Below, piece after piece: positions 2,433 through 17,538 of a stretch of 17,538 bases of DNA. The position numbers were made by a program, and so were the translations under genes. Within the stretch, counting starts at the first letter, position 1. Every line of letters begins with the position of its first letter. Source of the stretch: a virus (taxonomy: Duplodnaviria > Heunggongvirae > Uroviricota > Caudoviricetes); the IMG/VR virus record IMGVR_UViG_3300029079_000044. One strand, given 5' to 3'. A model generated the notes under the pieces. The model worked only from the letters and a program-made list of their open reading frames with translations. It was not told the origin of the DNA and searched no databases.

Positions 2433-2485
2433 GGGCGGCAGAGCAGTCACGGAGTAAAACTGATACCGCCAAACGTCACCAGAAA
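2433..2485 (-). ncRNA. dicF: DicF small RNA (ftsZ-targeting), 53 nt
   Basis: Reverse complement reads TTTCTGGTGACGTTTGGCGGTATCAGTTTTACTCCGTGACTGCTCTGCCGCCC followed by TTTTT, matching the DicF sequence as I recall it, including the GGCGG...CCGCC enclosing stem and 3' U-run. Confidence 0.8.
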
Positions 2486-9198: not shown

Positions 9199-9237
9199 GA
9201 ATCACGGCGGGTGCTTGAGGCTATCTGCCTCGGGCAC
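9199..9237 (+). promoter_or_regulatory. Conserved -10-like hexamer (TAGAAT) plus hairpin motif copy B
   Basis: GCGGGTGCTTGAGGCTATCTGCCTCGGGCA at 9207-9236 is 26/30 identical to copy A at 7188-7217; forms an 11-bp stem GTGCTTGAGGC/GCCTCGGGCAC with loop tatct; sits at the right boundary of the AT-rich cassette. Confidence 0.4.
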
Positions 9238-9399
9238 GAACACCAAAGGCAGATAGAGAAAAGCCCCAGTTAACATTACGCGTCCTGCAAGACGCTTAAC
9301 ATTAATCTGAGGCCAATTTCATGCTAGACACATGTAGGTTAGCCTCTTACGTGCCGAAAGGCACGGAGAAGCAGGCTATTGTTAACACCAAGCTGTAAT

Positions 9400-12068: not shown

Positions 12069-12308
12069 ATGGGTAGCATTAACCTGCGTATTGACGATGA
12101 ACTTAAAGCGCGTTCTTACGCCGCGCTTGAAAAAATGGGTGTAACTCCTTCTGAAGCGCTTCGTCTCATGCTCGAGTATATCGCTGACAATGAACGCTTG
12201 CCGTTCAAACAGACACTCCTGAGTGATGAAGATGCTGAACTTGTGGAGATAGTGAAAGAACGGCTTCGTAATCCTAAGCCAGTACGTGTGACGCTGGATG
12301 AACTCTGA
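12069..12308 (+). CDS. relB: RelB antitoxin (79 aa)
   Basis: MGSINLRIDDELKARSYA...PKPVRVTLDEL matches RelB as I recall it; AGAGG Shine-Dalgarno; TGATG overlap with relE. Confidence 0.9.
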   Translation: MGSINLRIDDELKARSYAALEKMGVTPSEALRLMLEYIADNERLPFKQTLLSDEDAELVEIVKERLRNPKPVRVTLDEL

Positions 12309-12595
12309 TGGCGTATTTTCTGGATTTTGACGAGCGGGCACTAAAGGAATGGCGAAAGCTGGGCTCGACGGTACGTGAACAGTTGAAAAAGAAGCTGGTT
12401 GAAGTACTTGAGTCACCCCGGATTGAAGCAAACAAGCTCCGTGGTATGCCTGATTGTTACAAGATTAAGCTCCGGTCTTCAGGCTATCGCCTTGTATACC
12501 AGGTTATAGACGAGAAAGTTGTCGTTTTCGTGATTTCTGTTGGGAAAAGAGAACGCTCGGAAGTATATAGCGAGGCGGTCAAACGCATTCTCTGA
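12308..12595 (+). CDS. relE: RelE mRNA interferase toxin (95 aa)
   Basis: MAYFLDFDERALKEWRKLGSTVR...VYSEAVKRIL matches RelE as I recall it. Confidence 0.9.
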   Translation: MAYFLDFDERALKEWRKLGSTVREQLKKKLVEVLESPRIEANKLRGMPDCYKIKLRSSGYRLVYQVIDEKVVVFVISVGKRERSEVYSEAVKRIL

Positions 12596-12666
12596 ACCAA
12601 AGCATGACATCTCTGTTTCGCACCGAAGGTGACACTTCTGCTTTGCGTTGACAGGAGAAGCAGGCT

Positions 12667-12822
12667 ATGAAGCAGCAAAAGGCGATGTTAATCGCCCTGA
12701 TCGTCATCTGTTTAACCGTCATAGTGACGGCACTGGTAACGAGGAAAGACCTCTGCGAGGTACGAATCCGAACCGGCCAGACGGAGGTCGCTGTCTTCAC
12801 AGCTTACGAACCTGAGGAGTAA
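12667..12822 (+). CDS. hokD: Hok-family membrane toxin HokD/RelF (51 aa)
   Basis: Hand-translated MKQQKAMLIALIVICLTVIVTALVTRKDLCEVRIRTGQTEVAVFTAYEPEE; below the track length cutoff; follows relE as in the relBEF operon. Confidence 0.8.
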   Translation: MKQQKAMLIALIVICLTVIVTALVTRKDLCEVRIRTGQTEVAVFTAYEPEE

Positions 12823-12890
12823 GAGACCCGGCGGGGGAGAAATCCCTCGCCACCTCTGATGTGGCAGGCATCCTCAACGCACCCGCACTT

Positions 12891-12917
12891 AACCCGCTTC
12901 GGCGGGTTTTTGTTTTT
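12891..12917 (+). terminator. Rho-independent terminator after hokD
   Basis: aaCCCGCttcgGCGGGtttttgttttt: GC stem, 4-nt loop, U-run. Confidence 0.6.
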
Positions 12918-12930
12918 ATTTTCAACGCGT

Positions 12931-12960
12931 TTGAAGTTCTGGACGGTGCCGGAATAGAAT
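12931..12960 (+). promoter_or_regulatory. Sigma-70-like promoter upstream of rem
   Basis: TTGAAG, 18 nt, TAGAAT. Confidence 0.4.
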
Positions 12961-13038
12961 CAAAAATACTTAAGTAGCGCGCAGGGATAAGAGGGATGGT
13001 CCCTTAAAGGGGAGAGCTAATTATCCGGAAGGATTCTG

Positions 13039-13290
13039 ATGATGAACATCGAAGAACTGCGTAAAATTTTTTGTGAAGATGGCCTCTATGCTGTGTGCGT
13101 TGAAAATGGAAATCTTGTTAGTCATTACCGCATTATGTGTTTGCGAAAGAATGGGGCTGCGTTAATTAATTTTGTGGATGCTCGGGTCACGGACGGATTT
13201 ATCTTGCGCGAAGGTGAGTTTGTCACTTCATTACAGGCATTGAAAGAGATCGGAATAAAAGCTGGCTTTTCTGCTTTTTCAGGAGAATAA
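13039..13290 (+). CDS. rem: Rem-like small protein (83 aa)
   Basis: Track ORF; size and position (between hokD and ydfU) as in Qin. Confidence 0.5.
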   Translation: MMNIEELRKIFCEDGLYAVCVENGNLVSHYRIMCLRKNGAALINFVDARVTDGFILREGEFVTSLQALKEIGIKAGFSAFSGE

Positions 13291-13356
13291 ACTCATCTAC
13301 AATCTTGCGCGGGGCTGAACTCCCGCTGAGTAACACCGTGCCACCGGAGAAAACCG

Positions 13357-13635
13357 ATGGCACGCAACGCAAAATATTACAATTCTGATAATTCGCCCGT
13401 TCTTGCCTGCACGCACGGGCGGTATTCTCACGCATTCAAGTCTGAATGGTTCCAGCACCCTCCATGCACTGCAGAACAGGCCGAATGGCTGATTCATTCT
13501 TACCGCAGGCGCGGGTTCGAGGTTAAGAAAGCTCTCAGTCTCGACTATCGGCACTGGATAATCTCTGTCAGGCTGCCTTATTCCGAACGCCCACCACGTG
13601 CGTCCCGCACTTTCCAGCAACGGATCTGGAGGTAA
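13357..13635 (+). CDS. Hypothetical Cys/His-containing protein (92 aa)
   Basis: Track ORF; GGAG 7 nt upstream of the ATG; its TAA stop lies 1 nt before the GTG start of the next gene. Confidence 0.45.
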   Translation: MARNAKYYNSDNSPVLACTHGRYSHAFKSEWFQHPPCTAEQAEWLIHSYRRRGFEVKKALSLDYRHWIISVRLPYSERPPRASRTFQQRIWR

Positions 13636-13636
13636 C

Positions 13637-14686
13637 GTGCGGGTATTACTTAGACCTGTTCTGGTGCCTGAGCTTGGGCTGGTGGTCCTTAAGCCGGGCC
13701 GTGAATCCATACAGATATTTCATAATCCTCGAGTGCTGGTGGAACCGGAACCAAAAAGCATGCGTAATCTGCCATCCGGAGTCGTTCCTGCCGTTCGCCA
13801 GCCGCTGGCGGAAGACAAAACATTGCTGCCGTTTTTTAGTAACGAACGGGTGATTCGTGCTGCTGGCGGCGTTGGCGCATTGTCCGACTGGCTATTACGT
13901 CATGTTACATCCTGCCAGTGGCCTAATGGCGATTACCATCACACTGAAACAGTCATTCACCGTTATGGTACCGGCGCAATGGTGTTGTGCTGGCACTGCG
14001 ACAACCAACTGCGTGACCAGACATCGGAATCACTGGAGCTGCTTGCTCAACAAAATCTGACAGCATGGGTGATTGACGTCATCCGTCACGCAATAAGCGG
14101 TACGCAGGAGCGGGAATTATCTTTGGCTGAATTATCCTGGTGGGCGGTCTGCAATCAGGTGGTGGATGCACTACCTGAGGCTGTATCGCGTCGTTCGCTG
14201 GGATTACCAGCGGAAAAAATCTGCTCGGTGTACCGCGAAAGCGACATCGTACCGGGAGAGCAGACCGCCACCAGCATATTGAAACAACGCACAAAAAATC
14301 TTGCACCGTTGCCTTACGCCCACCAGCAACAAAAATCACCACAGGAAAAGACGGTGGTAAGCATCACCGTTGATCCAGAGTCTCCGGAATCTTTCATGAA
14401 GCTGCCTAAACGTCGCCGCTGGGTTAAGGAGAAATACACACGTTGGGTTAAGACACAGCCGTGTGCTTGCTGCGGTATGCCAGCCGACGATCCGCATCAT
14501 CTGATTGGTCACGGGCAGGGCGGAATGGGAACAAAAGCACATGATCTCTTTGTGTTGCCTTTGTGCAGAAAGCATCACAACGAGCTGCATACGGATACAG
14601 TGGCATTTGAAGATAAGTATGGCTCCCAACTGGAGCTGATATTTCGTTTTATCGATCGCGCGCTGGCAATTGGCGTACTGGCGTAA
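13637..14686 (+). CDS. ydfU: YdfU-like DUF968 protein (349 aa from GTG)
   Basis: Track ORF 13598..14686 trimmed to the GTG at 13637, which is preceded by GGAGG; length then matches ydfU as I recall it; C-terminal Cys/His cluster (CACCGMPADDPHHLIGHG...CRKHHNELH). Confidence 0.6.
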   Translation: MRVLLRPVLVPELGLVVLKPGRESIQIFHNPRVLVEPEPKSMRNLPSGVVPAVRQPLAEDKTLLPFFSNERVIRAAGGVGALSDWLLRHVTSCQWPNGDYHHTETVIHRYGTGAMVLCWHCDNQLRDQTSESLELLAQQNLTAWVIDVIRHAISGTQERELSLAELSWWAVCNQVVDALPEAVSRRSLGLPAEKICSVYRESDIVPGEQTATSILKQRTKNLAPLPYAHQQQKSPQEKTVVSITVDPESPESFMKLPKRRRWVKEKYTRWVKTQPCACCGMPADDPHHLIGHGQGGMGTKAHDLFVLPLCRKHHNELHTDTVAFEDKYGSQLELIFRFIDRALAIGVLA

Positions 14687-14699
14687 GTGGAGAACGAGC

Positions 14700-15452
14700 A
14701 TGAACCTTGAAGCCTTACCAAAATATTACTCCCCAAAATCTCCAAAATTGAGCGATGACGCTCCAGCGACAGGCACCGGTTGTTTAACAATTACGGATGT
14801 AATGGCAGCGCAGGGGATGGTGCAGTCGAAAGCACCACTTGGGTTGGCCTTATTTCTGGCAAAAGTTGGTGTTCAGGACCCTCAGTTTGCGATTGAAGGC
14901 CTGCTAAATTACGCGATGGCACTGGATAACCCGACATTGAACAAATTGAGTGAAGAAATCCGGTTACAGATTATTCCTTACCTCGTGAGTTTTGCCTTTG
15001 CTGATTACTCCAGGTCTGCGGCAAGTAAGGCTCGCTGTGAGCATTGTTCAGGTACGGGATTTTATAATGTATTGCGCGAAGTGGTGAAACACTACAGACG
15101 CGGGGAATCTGTAATCAAGGAAGAATGGGTGAAGGAACTATGTCAGCATTGCCATGGTAAGGGCGAAGCCAGCACAGCGTGCAGAGGGTGTAAGGGTAAA
15201 GGGATTGTTCTGGATGAAAAAAGAACCCGGTTTCATGGCGTACCGGTATATAAGATTTGTGGGCGTTGTAATGGAAACCGGTTTAGTCGTTTACCGACCA
15301 CGCTGGCACGACGTCATGTCCAGAAGCTGGTACCAGACCTGACCGATTATCAGTGGTATAAGGGGTATGCGGACGTCATTGGTAAACTGGTAACAAAGTG
15401 CTGGCAGGAAGAAGCATACGCGGAAGCGCAATTGAGGAAGGTGACGAGATAA
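14700..15452 (+). CDS. quuQ: Late-gene antiterminator Q (QuuQ-like, 250 aa) with CxxC zinc-finger motifs
   Basis: ATG at 14700 preceded by GGAG at 7-nt spacing; CEHCSGTG, CQHCHGKG, CRGCKGKG and CGRCNG motifs; followed by a late promoter and terminator. Confidence 0.75.
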   Translation: MNLEALPKYYSPKSPKLSDDAPATGTGCLTITDVMAAQGMVQSKAPLGLALFLAKVGVQDPQFAIEGLLNYAMALDNPTLNKLSEEIRLQIIPYLVSFAFADYSRSAASKARCEHCSGTGFYNVLREVVKHYRRGESVIKEEWVKELCQHCHGKGEASTACRGCKGKGIVLDEKRTRFHGVPVYKICGRCNGNRFSRLPTTLARRHVQKLVPDLTDYQWYKGYADVIGKLVTKCWQEEAYAEAQLRKVTR

Positions 15453-15483
15453 ATGATTTTTGCTGAAGATGGCGACATGATGT

Positions 15484-15512
15484 TTGCATTTTTCAAAAAA
15501 TATGGATAAAAT
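15484..15512 (+). promoter_or_regulatory. PR'-like late promoter (Q-utilisation region)
   Basis: TTGCAT, 17 nt, TAAAAT, 32 bp after the Q stop. Confidence 0.5.
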
Positions 15513-15560
15513 TTTTTCAACGATGGGCTTTGTATACCCGACGTTAAGAAAAAGTAGAAA

Positions 15561-15590
15561 ACCCGCTGATGAGCGGGTTTTGTGCTTTAA
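15561..15590. terminator. tR'-like intrinsic terminator, potentially bidirectional
   Basis: aaaACCCGCtgatgaGCGGGTtttgtgcttt; A-run before and U-run after the stem. Confidence 0.6.
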
Positions 15591-15873
15591 ATGGGGCAAT
15601 GGTAATGTTGAATCTCATCCCGGGACTCATGTCTGTTAACTTATTATTTAGCTGGTGACTTGGTTATTTGCCTGATGTTTAAAATGTTTTCTTCCAGTAC
15701 AATGTCCCTAAACACAATGAGTCTGCTTATTATATTATTAGCAGAGCTATTACGGCCAAAGTACAGCATAAGCTTTTAAAGCCAATCAACCAGTCATCAA
15801 GACAGACGGGGTTATTCATAAAAACTCTCCATGTGTGATCCGATGGGGCCTGAAATTAAAGCTTTAATATAGC

Positions 15874-16086
15874 TCATGAAAGGTAAACATTGGCAGCTGA
15901 AGGGCCACGCAGACCATTTATCCGGCAAAATTCCACGCGTAATCCGGTGGTAATTTCTTCTGCATCGCGGAGATTGAGCGCTGAAACATGAAGCTGGACA
16001 TCGATACGACCATCGGATGGGGTGATAAGACCCTTGCCGCTTTTGCCGTCAAAGGTTTTGACAATTCCTGTCATTTTACGGGACAA
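15874..16086 (-). CDS. cspF: Cold-shock-like protein CspF/CspH type (70 aa); apparent TTG start
   Basis: [26 protein letters not shown]... cold-shock domain; start codon reads TTG with AAGGAA 5 nt upstream. Confidence 0.7.
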
Positions 16087-16386
16087 AAAAATTCCTTAAT
16101 ACTGATAACTTGGCGCACTATACACACGTTCCTGAAGAAAGCTATAGTTTTTTGATGGGGTTGAAGATGGCTGGATGTCTAAAATAAACATTGCTTCATA
16201 TGTTCAACTATGCGTTAATGATTGCGTCGGTTTGAAGAACAGACGATATACGAAGTAGTTTACTAAAGCAGTTCTCATTTCAGGTGTTATTCACTTATTC
16301 CTTCTTTGAGTCTCTCCAATTAAGTACGAAGTCGTTTCTGTTATGCAAACCATTTATGCCGAAAGGCTCAAGTTAAGGAATGTAGA

Positions 16387-16602
16387 ATGTCAAATAAAAT
16401 GACTGGTTTAGTAAAATGGTTTAACGCTGATAAAGGTTTCGGCTTTATTTCTCCTGTTGATGGTAGTAAAGATGTGTTTGTGCATTTTTCTGCGATTCAG
16501 AATGATAATTATCGAACCTTATTTGAAGGTCAAAAGGTTACCTTCTCTGTAGAGAGTGGTGCTAAAGGTCCTGCGGCAGCAAATGTTATAATTACCGATT
16601 AA
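16387..16602 (+). CDS. cspB: Cold-shock protein CspB-like (71 aa)
   Basis: [51 protein letters not shown]...; AAGGA Shine-Dalgarno. Confidence 0.8.
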
Positions 16603-16802
16603 AATCCAGGACTCGACTGTATACGATAACGAAGATGGCTGATGCCTGAGTAGAGATGCAGATAGAGTAATGGATATAGAATCCCATTTTGTGGTGAAGT
16701 ACAGGTTTGCTGTATGAATAGTTTAATAGCAGAAGCTAACTGCTGGCATAGTAAAACAAAGTGCGTAAGTGGGTGACTCCCACAAAAAGCACCACAATCT
16801 CA

Positions 16803-16826
16803 AACCCGCTCAGGCGGGTTTTTTCT
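16803..16826 (+). terminator. Rho-independent terminator after cspB
   Basis: aaCCCGCtcagGCGGGttttttct. Confidence 0.6.
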
Positions 16827-17052: not shown

Positions 17053-17538
17053 AGGCTTTTCCTGTGTAAATGGTCGTATACAATACACTAAATAACAAAA
17101 CATATCGCGCATTATTATTTAATACATGGTTTTTAACCCTATTATTTTAAATTTCTGTTTTTTAGTGTTGTTGTGAACAATGTTTGCTGTAAAAACTAAC
17201 CCGTAGACTCCGATCTTTTCAAACATACTGCACCATTCGCGCACATCGGGGTGAGGATATGAAATCCATTGATAATAACAACTGGCGTCGCCTGTGGCAC
17301 ATCGGCCTGTAATGCTGGTTTCTGGGCATTGCCGGAACTCCGTCACATTTCAAGATTAAAGAAGAGAGGCGTAAGACTGCGAGAGATGAATGATGCCGCC
17401 ATCATTACGCAAGACTGTTGCGGTTGCTATTACTTCCAAAAATCGTTATTTCCCTCAGAGTGAGGAGCAGAAAAAGAGAATATGAGACAGGAATGCTCCT
17501 CTTATAACTGGACTTGGTGACTAAAATTTTGCAGGCCC

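What the first reader, a model, noticed from the sequence alone, without database searches (positions are those of the whole stretch)
15453..15590. Compact late promoter and terminator immediately after Q
A near-consensus promoter (TTGCAT, 17 nt, TAAAAT at 15484-15512) is followed about 50 nt later by a strong intrinsic terminator (15561-15590), the arrangement expected for a PR'/qut/tR' unit making a short terminated RNA unless Q modifies the polymerase. The cold-shock genes cspF/cspB lie between this unit and the expected lysis genes, as in Qin. The terminator has an A-run on one side and a U-run on the other, so it could act in both directions.
Basis: partly seen in the sequence, partly recalled or inferred. 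Interest (0 to 1): 0.35.

Follow-up and report, generated by a model that had tools for sequence, protein, structure and literature searches.

The report
Qin prophage late promoter-terminator cassette
Just after the prophage's Q gene sits a lambda-type late promoter, pause signal and terminator that make a 67-nucleotide RNA in E. coli K-12, an ordinary arrangement for such phages, with one less familiar feature: a conserved hairpin at the very start of the RNA.

Summary
The window is the Qin prophage: 99.6% identical to K-12 up to position 16677, diverged after that.

Q (14700-15452) belongs to the lambda Q family, not the 82 or 21 families. Downstream lie TTGCAT, 17 nt, TAAAAT, 6 nt, then AACGATGGG. 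That last element is identical in sequence and spacing to lambda PR' +1 to +9, the sigma70-dependent pause element.

Published K-12 genome-wide data map onto it:
- a start site at 15519
- one of the strongest sigma70-associated pauses in the genome, at 15535/15536
- a Term-seq 3' end at C15585 in all three growth conditions, giving a 67-nt RNA

The Q-end, promoter and terminator module is shared with active phages (SfV, mEp460, Ayreon, 2H10, an Stx1 phage). Their homology stops at the hairpin, which keeps its pairing through compensatory changes.

Q-dependent read-through was not tested. Use of the terminator in the opposite direction fits the sequence but shows no 3' end in Term-seq.

This is a new member of a known kind. 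Short leaders are the rule in this family (P22, phi80); lambda's 194-nt RNA is the exception.

One addition: the first 4-5 transcript bases pair with a segment at about +13 to +27 in 94 of 95 distinct family leaders, and the two sides covary. I did not find this described.

The parts
14700..15452 (+). Q antiterminator gene (ydfT/quuQ), 250 aa, lambda Q family, with a 47-48-aa insertion carrying two extra CxxCxGxG motifs
   Evidence: Pfam PF03589 E=3.6e-54 plus DnaJ_CXXCXGXG. 33% identity to lambda Q end to end. Annotated ydfT in K-12.
15484..15489 (+). -35 element TTGCAT of the late promoter
   Evidence: Sequence. Invariant in 12 phages. The same hexamer is annotated as the pR' -35 in phi80.
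15490..15506 (+). 17-nt spacer TTTTCAAAAAATATGGA, candidate Q-binding element
   Evidence: By position, as in lambda (paper PMC9388147) and the phi80 annotation. 11 of 17 bases match lambda's spacer, counted by eye from the alignment. TGG near the -10 is shared by lambda, phi80 and Qin. Binding not tested.
15507..15512 (+). -10 element TAAAAT
   Evidence: Sequence. TAAAAT, TAAGAT or TAGGAT in relatives.
15519..15527 (+). Start site (A15519) and sigma-dependent pause element AACGAT followed by GGG
   Evidence: Identical to lambda PR' +1 to +9. Start site NC_000913.2 1640446(-), as used in PMC7876045, maps to 15519.
15532..15536 (+). sigma70-associated pause positions in vivo: 15535 and 15536 strong, 15532 weaker
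   Evidence: RNET-seq in a greAB deletion strain: 1640429 scores 6881 (12th row of the table), 1640430 scores 5783, and 1640433 scores 1875.
15519..15545 (+). 5'-terminal hairpin of the leader RNA: nt 1-4 pair with nt 24-27, and nt 6-9 pair with nt 19-22
   Evidence: Minimum-free-energy fold. 99% of cells paired in Qin-type variants. The two sides covary across the lambda Q family.
15546..15557 (+). A-rich linker. On the minus strand this is the T-rich tract that follows the hairpin.
   Evidence: Sequence. The A-rich version occurs only in loci with a convergent cspF.
15558..15581 (.). Terminator hairpin tR' AAAACCCGCT-GATG-AGCGGGTTTT
   Evidence: 5 of 7 pairs show changes on both sides across 26 variants. 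Annotated as a terminator in SfV and Ayreon.
15519..15585 (+). 67-nt terminated leader RNA with its 3' end at C15585
   Evidence: Term-seq 3' end U00096.3 1642356(-) in LB OD 0.4 (103,591 reads), in LB OD 2.0 (55,368 reads) and in a third listing of the same coordinate, which by the three-sheet layout is M63. It is classed 'orphan'. The printed sequence equals window 15535-15595.
15730..15819 (-). ynfS, a 29-aa small-protein gene convergent with the unit
   Evidence: Coordinates and peptide in PMC6001520.
15874..16086 (-). cspF, convergent. A possible user of the hairpin on the minus strand.
   Evidence: Pfam CSD. Annotation.
16387..16602 (+). cspB with its cspA-type thermoregulator leader, co-oriented cargo gene

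Best explanation
This is the late-gene control cassette of the Qin prophage, of the lambda type.

Shown:
- sigma70 RNA polymerase starts at A15519.
- It pauses at about +17/+18 with sigma70 still attached. The non-template AACGAT at +1 to +6 looks like a -10 element.
- Transcripts end at C15585, right after the hairpin, giving a 67-nt RNA in all three growth conditions tested.

Inferred:
- When Q (ydfT) is made, it binds the spacer between -35 and -10 and loads onto the paused polymerase.
- The modified polymerase then reads through tR'. It continues through antisense ynfS and cspF, through cspB, and through the next terminator at 16802 into the lysis genes.
- The cassette moves between phages as one module that ends at the hairpin.
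- The RNA's 5'-terminal hairpin probably protects the 5' end or fixes the folded RNA outside the Q nozzle.
For: - Q belongs to the lambda Q family.
- Promoter geometry and the pause element match lambda exactly: 17-nt spacer, 6 nt, then AACGATGGG.
- Start site and sigma70 pauses come from PMC7876045.
- The 3' end comes from PMC7815308.
- The module is conserved in SfV, mEp460, Ayreon, 2H10 and Stx-phage records. In 29 of 35 matching phage records the match falls in the 80-90% identity band, and those listed end at or a few bases after the hairpin's last base.
- The hairpin shows compensatory changes.
- The phi80 record annotates the same layout: pR', a Q site, then a terminator about 50 nt on.
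- K-12 has holin, lysozyme and spanin genes downstream.
- The cassette definition is given in PMC9388147.
Against: - No experiment here or in the papers read shows that this Q acts at this site.
- The -35-like TTGACT next to the pause element, which lambda uses for sigma region 4, is absent. It reads TTTTTC here.
- The plus-strand U tract is interrupted (UUUUGUGCUUU), and the scan did not call it a terminator on that strand.
- A same-strand 3' end at 15753 in stationary phase has more reads than tR' (87,904 against 55,368), so termination may be leaky without Q.
- In this window the holin gene is decayed, so the cassette may no longer control a working lysis operon.
- Mapping the start site to the window uses a version 2 to version 3 coordinate offset of 1976 recalled from memory. 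An error there would shift the start by about a base.
Confidence: 0.85

Rival explanations
1. The hairpin is mainly, or also, the terminator of the convergent ynfS/cspF transcription on the minus strand, so it works as a bidirectional terminator that shields Q from antisense transcription.
For: - On the minus strand the hairpin is followed by UUUUCUACUUUUUCUU, and it is listed first among the terminator-like sites in the scan.
- The minus-strand fold has z = -5.0.
- The A-rich upstream tract occurs only in the 37 loci that carry a convergent cspF.
Against: - The same hairpin position is kept in phages that have no convergent gene.
- Term-seq lists no 3' end on that strand near the hairpin in three conditions.
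- The link between the A tract and cspF rests on one or two lineages, so it may simply reflect shared descent.
Confidence: 0.3
2. The 67-nt RNA is itself a trans-acting regulatory small RNA, as StxS is for Stx phages. The promoter-terminator pair is kept in a decayed prophage for that reason.
For: - The RNA is detected in every Term-seq condition.
- It has hairpins at both ends and an A-rich single-stranded linker.
- 'cspF.ydfT.IGR' is a node in the Hfq RIL-seq data, with a value of 70 that I read as chimeric fragments (column headers not seen).
- There is a precedent in PMC7547250.
- Q and the cassette are intact here while the holin is not.
Against: - The RIL-seq-based predictor gives it a small-RNA probability of 0.0024.
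- No target is known.
- The linker is not conserved among phages that share the module.
- No Rfam family matches. The isrK hit scores 16.6 bits against a gathering score of 50.
Confidence: 0.12
3. The promoter-like hexamers and the hairpin lie next to each other by chance, with no joint function.
For: The hexamers alone are at chance level in the window.
Against: - The pause element is identical to lambda's and in register.
- The start site, pause and 3' end have all been mapped.
- The region is conserved as a module.
Confidence: 0.01

Closest known systems
Phage lambda Q / PR' / qut / tR' (6S RNA)
   Same: - The Q family is the same (PF03589, 33% identity).
- The promoter has the same 17-nt spacer.
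- 6 nt after the -10 comes an identical AACGATGGG.
- There is a sigma70-dependent pause near +16 to +18.
- A terminated leader RNA is made whenever the promoter fires.
   Different: - The leader is 67 nt, not 194 nt.
- The -35 is TTGCAT, not TTGACT.
- The upstream half of the spacer differs, which probably sets Q specificity.
- There is no TTGACT element beside the pause element.
- Q carries a 47-48-aa zinc-motif insertion.
- Cold-shock genes lie between the terminator and the lysis genes.
Phage phi80 gp17 (Q) with its annotated pR', Q site and terminator; also P22 gp23
   Same: - The family is the same.
- phi80 Q is also long (269 aa).
- phi80 has TTGCAT as its -35.
- phi80's terminator is annotated about 50 nt after the -10.
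- P22 has a hairpin and T tract at a similar distance, by my reading of the sequence.
- Both leaders carry the 5' pairing.
   Different: - The pause element in phi80 is AACGCT.
- The first half of the spacer differs in sequence.
- Q identity is only 33-37%.
StxS (Stx-phage small RNA made from PR' to tR') and Gifsy-1 IsrK
   Same: All are short RNAs made by a late promoter and its terminator in a lysogen (PMC7547250).
   Different: - No regulatory role or target is known here.
- StxS is cut from a longer precursor by RNase E.
- The Rfam isrK match is at chance level.

Membership tests
Lambda-type Q-dependent late regulatory cassette | A Q gene of the lambda Q family (PF03589) immediately upstream | tested here: met
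   E=3.6e-54. Full-length alignment to lambda Q. The Q stop codon lies 67 nt before +1.
Lambda-type Q-dependent late regulatory cassette | An active sigma70 promoter just after Q | tested here: met
   Hexamers. The published start site, 1640446(-), maps to 15519.
Lambda-type Q-dependent late regulatory cassette | A -10-like pause element at +1 to +6, with a sigma70-dependent promoter-proximal pause | tested here: met
   AACGAT is identical to lambda's. The sigma70-affinity RNET-seq pause 16-17 nt from the start is the 12th row of the table.
Lambda-type Q-dependent late regulatory cassette | A Q-binding element between -35 and -10 that Q binds | tested here: inconclusive
   The position and partial similarity fit lambda and phi80. 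Among close relatives the spacer is only slightly better conserved than its flanks. There is no binding assay.
Lambda-type Q-dependent late regulatory cassette | An intrinsic terminator downstream that ends transcription when Q is absent | tested here: met
   The hairpin shows compensatory changes. The Term-seq 3' end at 15585 is listed three times, once per condition sheet.
Lambda-type Q-dependent late regulatory cassette | Q-dependent read-through into the late genes | not testable with these tools
   Lysis genes lie downstream in K-12, and the holin is a pseudogene in this window. From memory, lambda qin recombinants (Espion et al. 1983; only the citation was seen) suggest the region can drive late genes.
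Lambda PR' itself (sigma region 4 site) | A -35-like TTGACT one base upstream of the pause element | tested here: not met
   It reads TTTTTC here. Only lambda and P22 have TTGACT among the family members compared.
Bidirectional intrinsic terminator | A hairpin flanked by an A tract and a T tract, lying between convergent genes | tested here: met
Bidirectional intrinsic terminator | RNA 3' ends on both strands at the hairpin | tested here: inconclusive
   The plus-strand 3' end is seen. None is listed on the other strand, but expression of cspF and ynfS in those cultures is unknown.
Late-promoter-derived regulatory small RNA (StxS type) | Hfq binding and trans targets | tested here: inconclusive
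   It is a RIL-seq node with a value of 70 that I read as chimeric fragments, but its predicted small-RNA probability is 0.0024.

The most novel reading that the evidence does not exclude
The hairpin formed by the very first bases of the late RNA is a selected, previously unremarked part of lambda-family late leaders. Bases 3 and 4 of the sigma pause element covary with a segment at about +13 to +27 (AACG with CGTT, AATG with CATT, AACA with TGTT, AAGA or AAGG with TCTT). It may work in either of two ways. It may act as a 5'-end cap against RppH and RNase E. Or it may act as a fold that forms once the RNA has passed through the Q nozzle and locks Q onto the elongation complex.
Probability: 0.3. 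Interest if true: 0.6.

Novelty: new member of a known kind. Interest (0 to 1): 0.33.

Why it matters
- It names three anonymous features of the K-12 transcriptome: a start site, one of the strongest sigma70 pauses in the genome, and an 'orphan' 3' end. Together they are the Qin prophage late promoter, pause site and terminator. The pause paper's main text never mentions prophages.
- The same module sits about 500 nt upstream of stx1 in one Stx phage, so its read-through is likely relevant to toxin expression there.
- The 5' pairing, if functional, would add an RNA element to the textbook picture of the Q loading site. It can be tested with a few point mutants.

Tried and rejected
- Rfam at gathering threshold finds nothing in the unit. 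At permissive thresholds only generic hairpin or leader hits appear. The isrK hit (16.6 bits, E 0.09-0.3) spans the RNA but matches only generic stems, so I rejected it as homology.
- The small ORFs over the unit (15484-15639 on the plus strand, 15644-15769 on the minus strand) have no Pfam match. A peptide starting at the ATG inside AACGATGGG is unlikely, because relatives with AACAGT or AACACT at that position lack the ATG.
- My idea that K-12 start site 576452 (pause rows 2 and 4 of the table) is the DLP12 late promoter could not be verified. My coordinate transfer landed inside a porin gene, so I dropped it.
- The SEnd-seq paper on bidirectional terminators was not available.
- Full-text searches for quuQ/ydfT, and for a description of a leader stem-loop, found nothing relevant. 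Older subscription literature could not be searched.
- Spacer conservation as evidence for a Q site is weak among relatives that are at least 94% identical.

Full report
**What the window is.** Positions 12300-16677 are 99.6% identical, without gaps, to the E. coli K-12 MG1655 Qin prophage. The gene order is relBE, hokD, rem, ydfU, ydfT (Q), ynfS, cspF, cspB. After 16677 the window diverges (88% identity up to 17332). No complete E. coli genome matches the last 200 bases or so.

**Checking the observation.**
- TTGCAT (15484-15489), a 17-nt spacer and TAAAAT (15507-15512) match the consensus at only 8 of 12 positions. The window holds as many promoter-like sites as shuffled sequence does (33 against 29.5). 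The hexamers alone therefore prove nothing.
- The hairpin at 15558-15581 is the first-listed terminator-like site in the window, but the scan called it on the minus strand only. On the plus strand the four T's pair with the four A's, and what follows is GTGCTTT.

**What it is.**
- Q (14700-15452, 250 aa) is a lambda-family Q (Pfam PF03589, E=3.6e-54). It is 33% identical to lambda Q from end to end.
- It has a 47-48-aa insertion carrying two extra CxxCxGxG motifs.
- The right reference is therefore lambda, not phages 82 or 21. According to PMC9388147 those belong to unrelated Q families.
- Aligned with the lambda PR' sequence read from NC_001416, the region has the same geometry: -35, 17 nt, -10, 6 nt.
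- It then has an identical TCAACGATGGG at 15517-15527. In lambda, AACGAT at +1 to +6 is the -10-like element that causes the sigma70-dependent pause where Q loads (established knowledge; cassette described).

**Experimental support from published K-12 data.**
- *Coordinate link.* ynfS coordinates in PMC6001520, together with the K-12 annotation, give U00096.3 = 1657941 minus the window position.
- *3' end.* Term-seq (PMC7815308) lists a 3' end at 1642356(-), classed 'orphan'. It has 103,591 reads in LB OD 0.4 and 55,368 in LB OD 2.0. The coordinate is listed a third time, which by the three-sheet layout is the M63 sheet.
- The sequence printed for that 3' end equals window 15535-15595, which puts the end at C15585. 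This also checks the mapping independently.
- *Start and pause.* RNET-seq of sigma70-bound polymerase (PMC7876045, NC_000913.2 coordinates) lists pauses at 1640429 (score 6881, 12th row of the table) and 1640430 (score 5783).
- These pauses lie 17 and 16 nt from the nearest dRNA-seq start site, 1640446(-). A weaker pause at 1640433 is also listed.
- With the version 2 to version 3 offset of 1976 (from memory), the start site is A15519, the first A of AACGAT. The pauses are at 15535/15536.
- The RNA is therefore 15519-15585, 67 nt. That paper's main text never mentions prophages, so the identity of this site seems not to have been pointed out there.

**Comparative support.**
- The segment 15440-15581 is shared by 35 phage records, including SfV, mEp460, Ayreon, 2H10, Stx2c and Stx2k phages, and an Stx1 phage.
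- In 29 of these records the match falls in the 80-90% identity band. Those listed end at or a few bases after the hairpin's last base.
- SfV and Ayreon annotate a terminator at that position.
- In a 12-phage alignment the -35, most of the spacer and AACGATGGGCTTT are invariant, and the sequences after the T tract are unrelated. Q end, promoter and terminator therefore travel as one module, with variable cargo behind it: cspF/cspB, a DNA methylase, stx1 or a holin.
- Among 26 distinct variants, 5 of the 7 hairpin pairs show changes on both sides (for example CCTCGC-TTCG-GCGGGG and ACTCGC/GCGAGT). This exceeds the shuffles and all slid controls.

**How it most likely works.**
- Shown: initiation at 15519, a sigma70-associated pause at about +17/+18, and termination at +67.
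- Inferred from family membership: Q binds the spacer and loads onto the paused complex. The modified polymerase then ignores tR' and the terminator at 16802, and reaches the lysis genes, which K-12 still has.
- The upstream half of the spacer differs among lambda, phi80 and Qin, while TGG next to the -10 is shared. This fits a variable specificity half-site plus a common contact, but it is inference only.
- The TTGACT that lambda uses for sigma region 4 is absent here.

**Compactness is not unusual.** P22, phi80, HK225, an Stx2a phage, YeP3 and a Proteus phage all have a hairpin and T tract within about 30-70 nt of the predicted start. The phi80 record annotates pR', a Q site and the terminator in just this layout. 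Lambda's 194-nt leader is the outlier.

**Open points.**
- *Bidirectional use.* The A-rich tract before the hairpin occurs only in the 37 loci with a convergent cspF, and the minus-strand fold is good.
- Against that, these loci represent one or two lineages, and no minus-strand 3' end is listed near the hairpin.
- *Read-through.* In LB OD 2.0 a same-strand 3' end at 15753 has more reads than tR'. This could mean leaky termination, low-level Q, or RNA processing.
- *Regulatory RNA.* The intergenic region appears in Hfq RIL-seq data but scores very low as a small RNA.
- *Decay.* In this window the holin gene has lost its start and an internal piece.

**An extra finding inside the unit.**
- The predicted fold of the 67-nt RNA (-26.2 kcal/mol, z = -5.6) pairs nt 1-4 with nt 24-27 and nt 6-9 with nt 19-22.
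- I collected Q loci related to phi80, SF6, YeP3, an Erwinia phage and a Proteus phage, and placed +1 from the -35, -10 and pause-element pattern.
- In 94 of 95 distinct leaders, at least 4 consecutive pairs start at +1. Swapping downstream segments among leaders gives at most 78 of 95 in 2000 trials. Shuffling each leader's own downstream segment gives a mean of 26.
- The two sides covary:

| First four bases | Leaders with the matching complement |
|---|---|
| AACG | 55 of 59 have CGTT |
| AACA | 15 of 16 have TGTT |
| AATG | 15 of 16 have CATT |
| AAGG or AAGA | 4 of 4 have TCTT |

- Mismatched combinations are few. Several promoter classes each contain more than one type, so the switch happened more than once.
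- The loop length varies: the partner of +1 lies between +13 and +32. This argues for an RNA helix rather than a protein-binding DNA palindrome.
- A helix that starts at the first nucleotide is what 5'-end protection from RppH and RNase E requires (established knowledge). PMC9388147 also remarks that RNA folding after extrusion would lock Q onto the complex.
- I found no description of this helix, but older literature could not be searched.

**Verdict.** The finding is correct and well supported. It is a new member of a known kind: a lambda-type late control cassette whose parts are already visible, unnamed, in K-12 genome-wide data. Interest is modest. The conserved 5' helix is the one element that may be new.

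Noticed in passing
window 15519-15545; loci L094-L379: The first 4-5 transcript bases (part of the sigma pause element) pair with a segment at about +13 to +27 in 94 of 95 distinct lambda-Q-family late leaders. The two sides show compensatory switches: AACG with CGTT, AATG with CATT, AACA with TGTT, and AAGA with TCTT.
   Followed up: yes
L094 (phi80), L095 (P22), L097, L099, L100, L101: In this Q family the first hairpin and T tract usually lies 30-70 nt after the predicted start. Lambda's 194-nt leader is the exception.
   Followed up: partly
window 15753 (+): Term-seq lists a second same-strand 3' end (U00096.3 1642188) only in LB OD 2.0. It has more reads than tR', lies 8 nt after a small hairpin (15722-15727 with 15740-15745), and is antisense to ynfS. 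It could be read-through or a processing product.
   Followed up: no
window 17257-17400 and 17340-17538: The holin gene is a pseudogene here, with no intact start and an internal deletion relative to K-12 EssD. The last 200 bases or so of the window match no complete E. coli genome.
   Followed up: partly
window 15045-15188 (Q residues 116-163): Relative to lambda Q, this Q has a 47-48-aa insertion with two extra CxxCxGxG motifs, giving a DnaJ-like zinc-finger match. phi80 and many relatives are similarly long.
   Followed up: partly
L011 (phage Lys8385Vzw) 1580-2081: The same promoter-terminator module lies about 500 nt upstream of stx1A in an Stx phage, so this cassette type likely controls Shiga toxin there.
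   Followed up: partly
window 12891-12908, 15558-15581, 16802-16821: Three terminator-like hairpins in the window share nearly the same stem, (A)ACCCGC...GCGGGT(T).
   Followed up: no
window 15546-15561: The linker AAGAAAAAGUAGAAAA is rich in A-R-N triplets (my reading as a possible Hfq distal-face motif). The region is a minor node in Hfq RIL-seq data.
   Followed up: partly
window 2433-2484 (-), 9209-9380 (+), 16226-16644 (+): Rfam finds DicF, a sok antitoxin RNA and the cspA-type thermoregulator of cspB. All are known Qin features.
   Followed up: no
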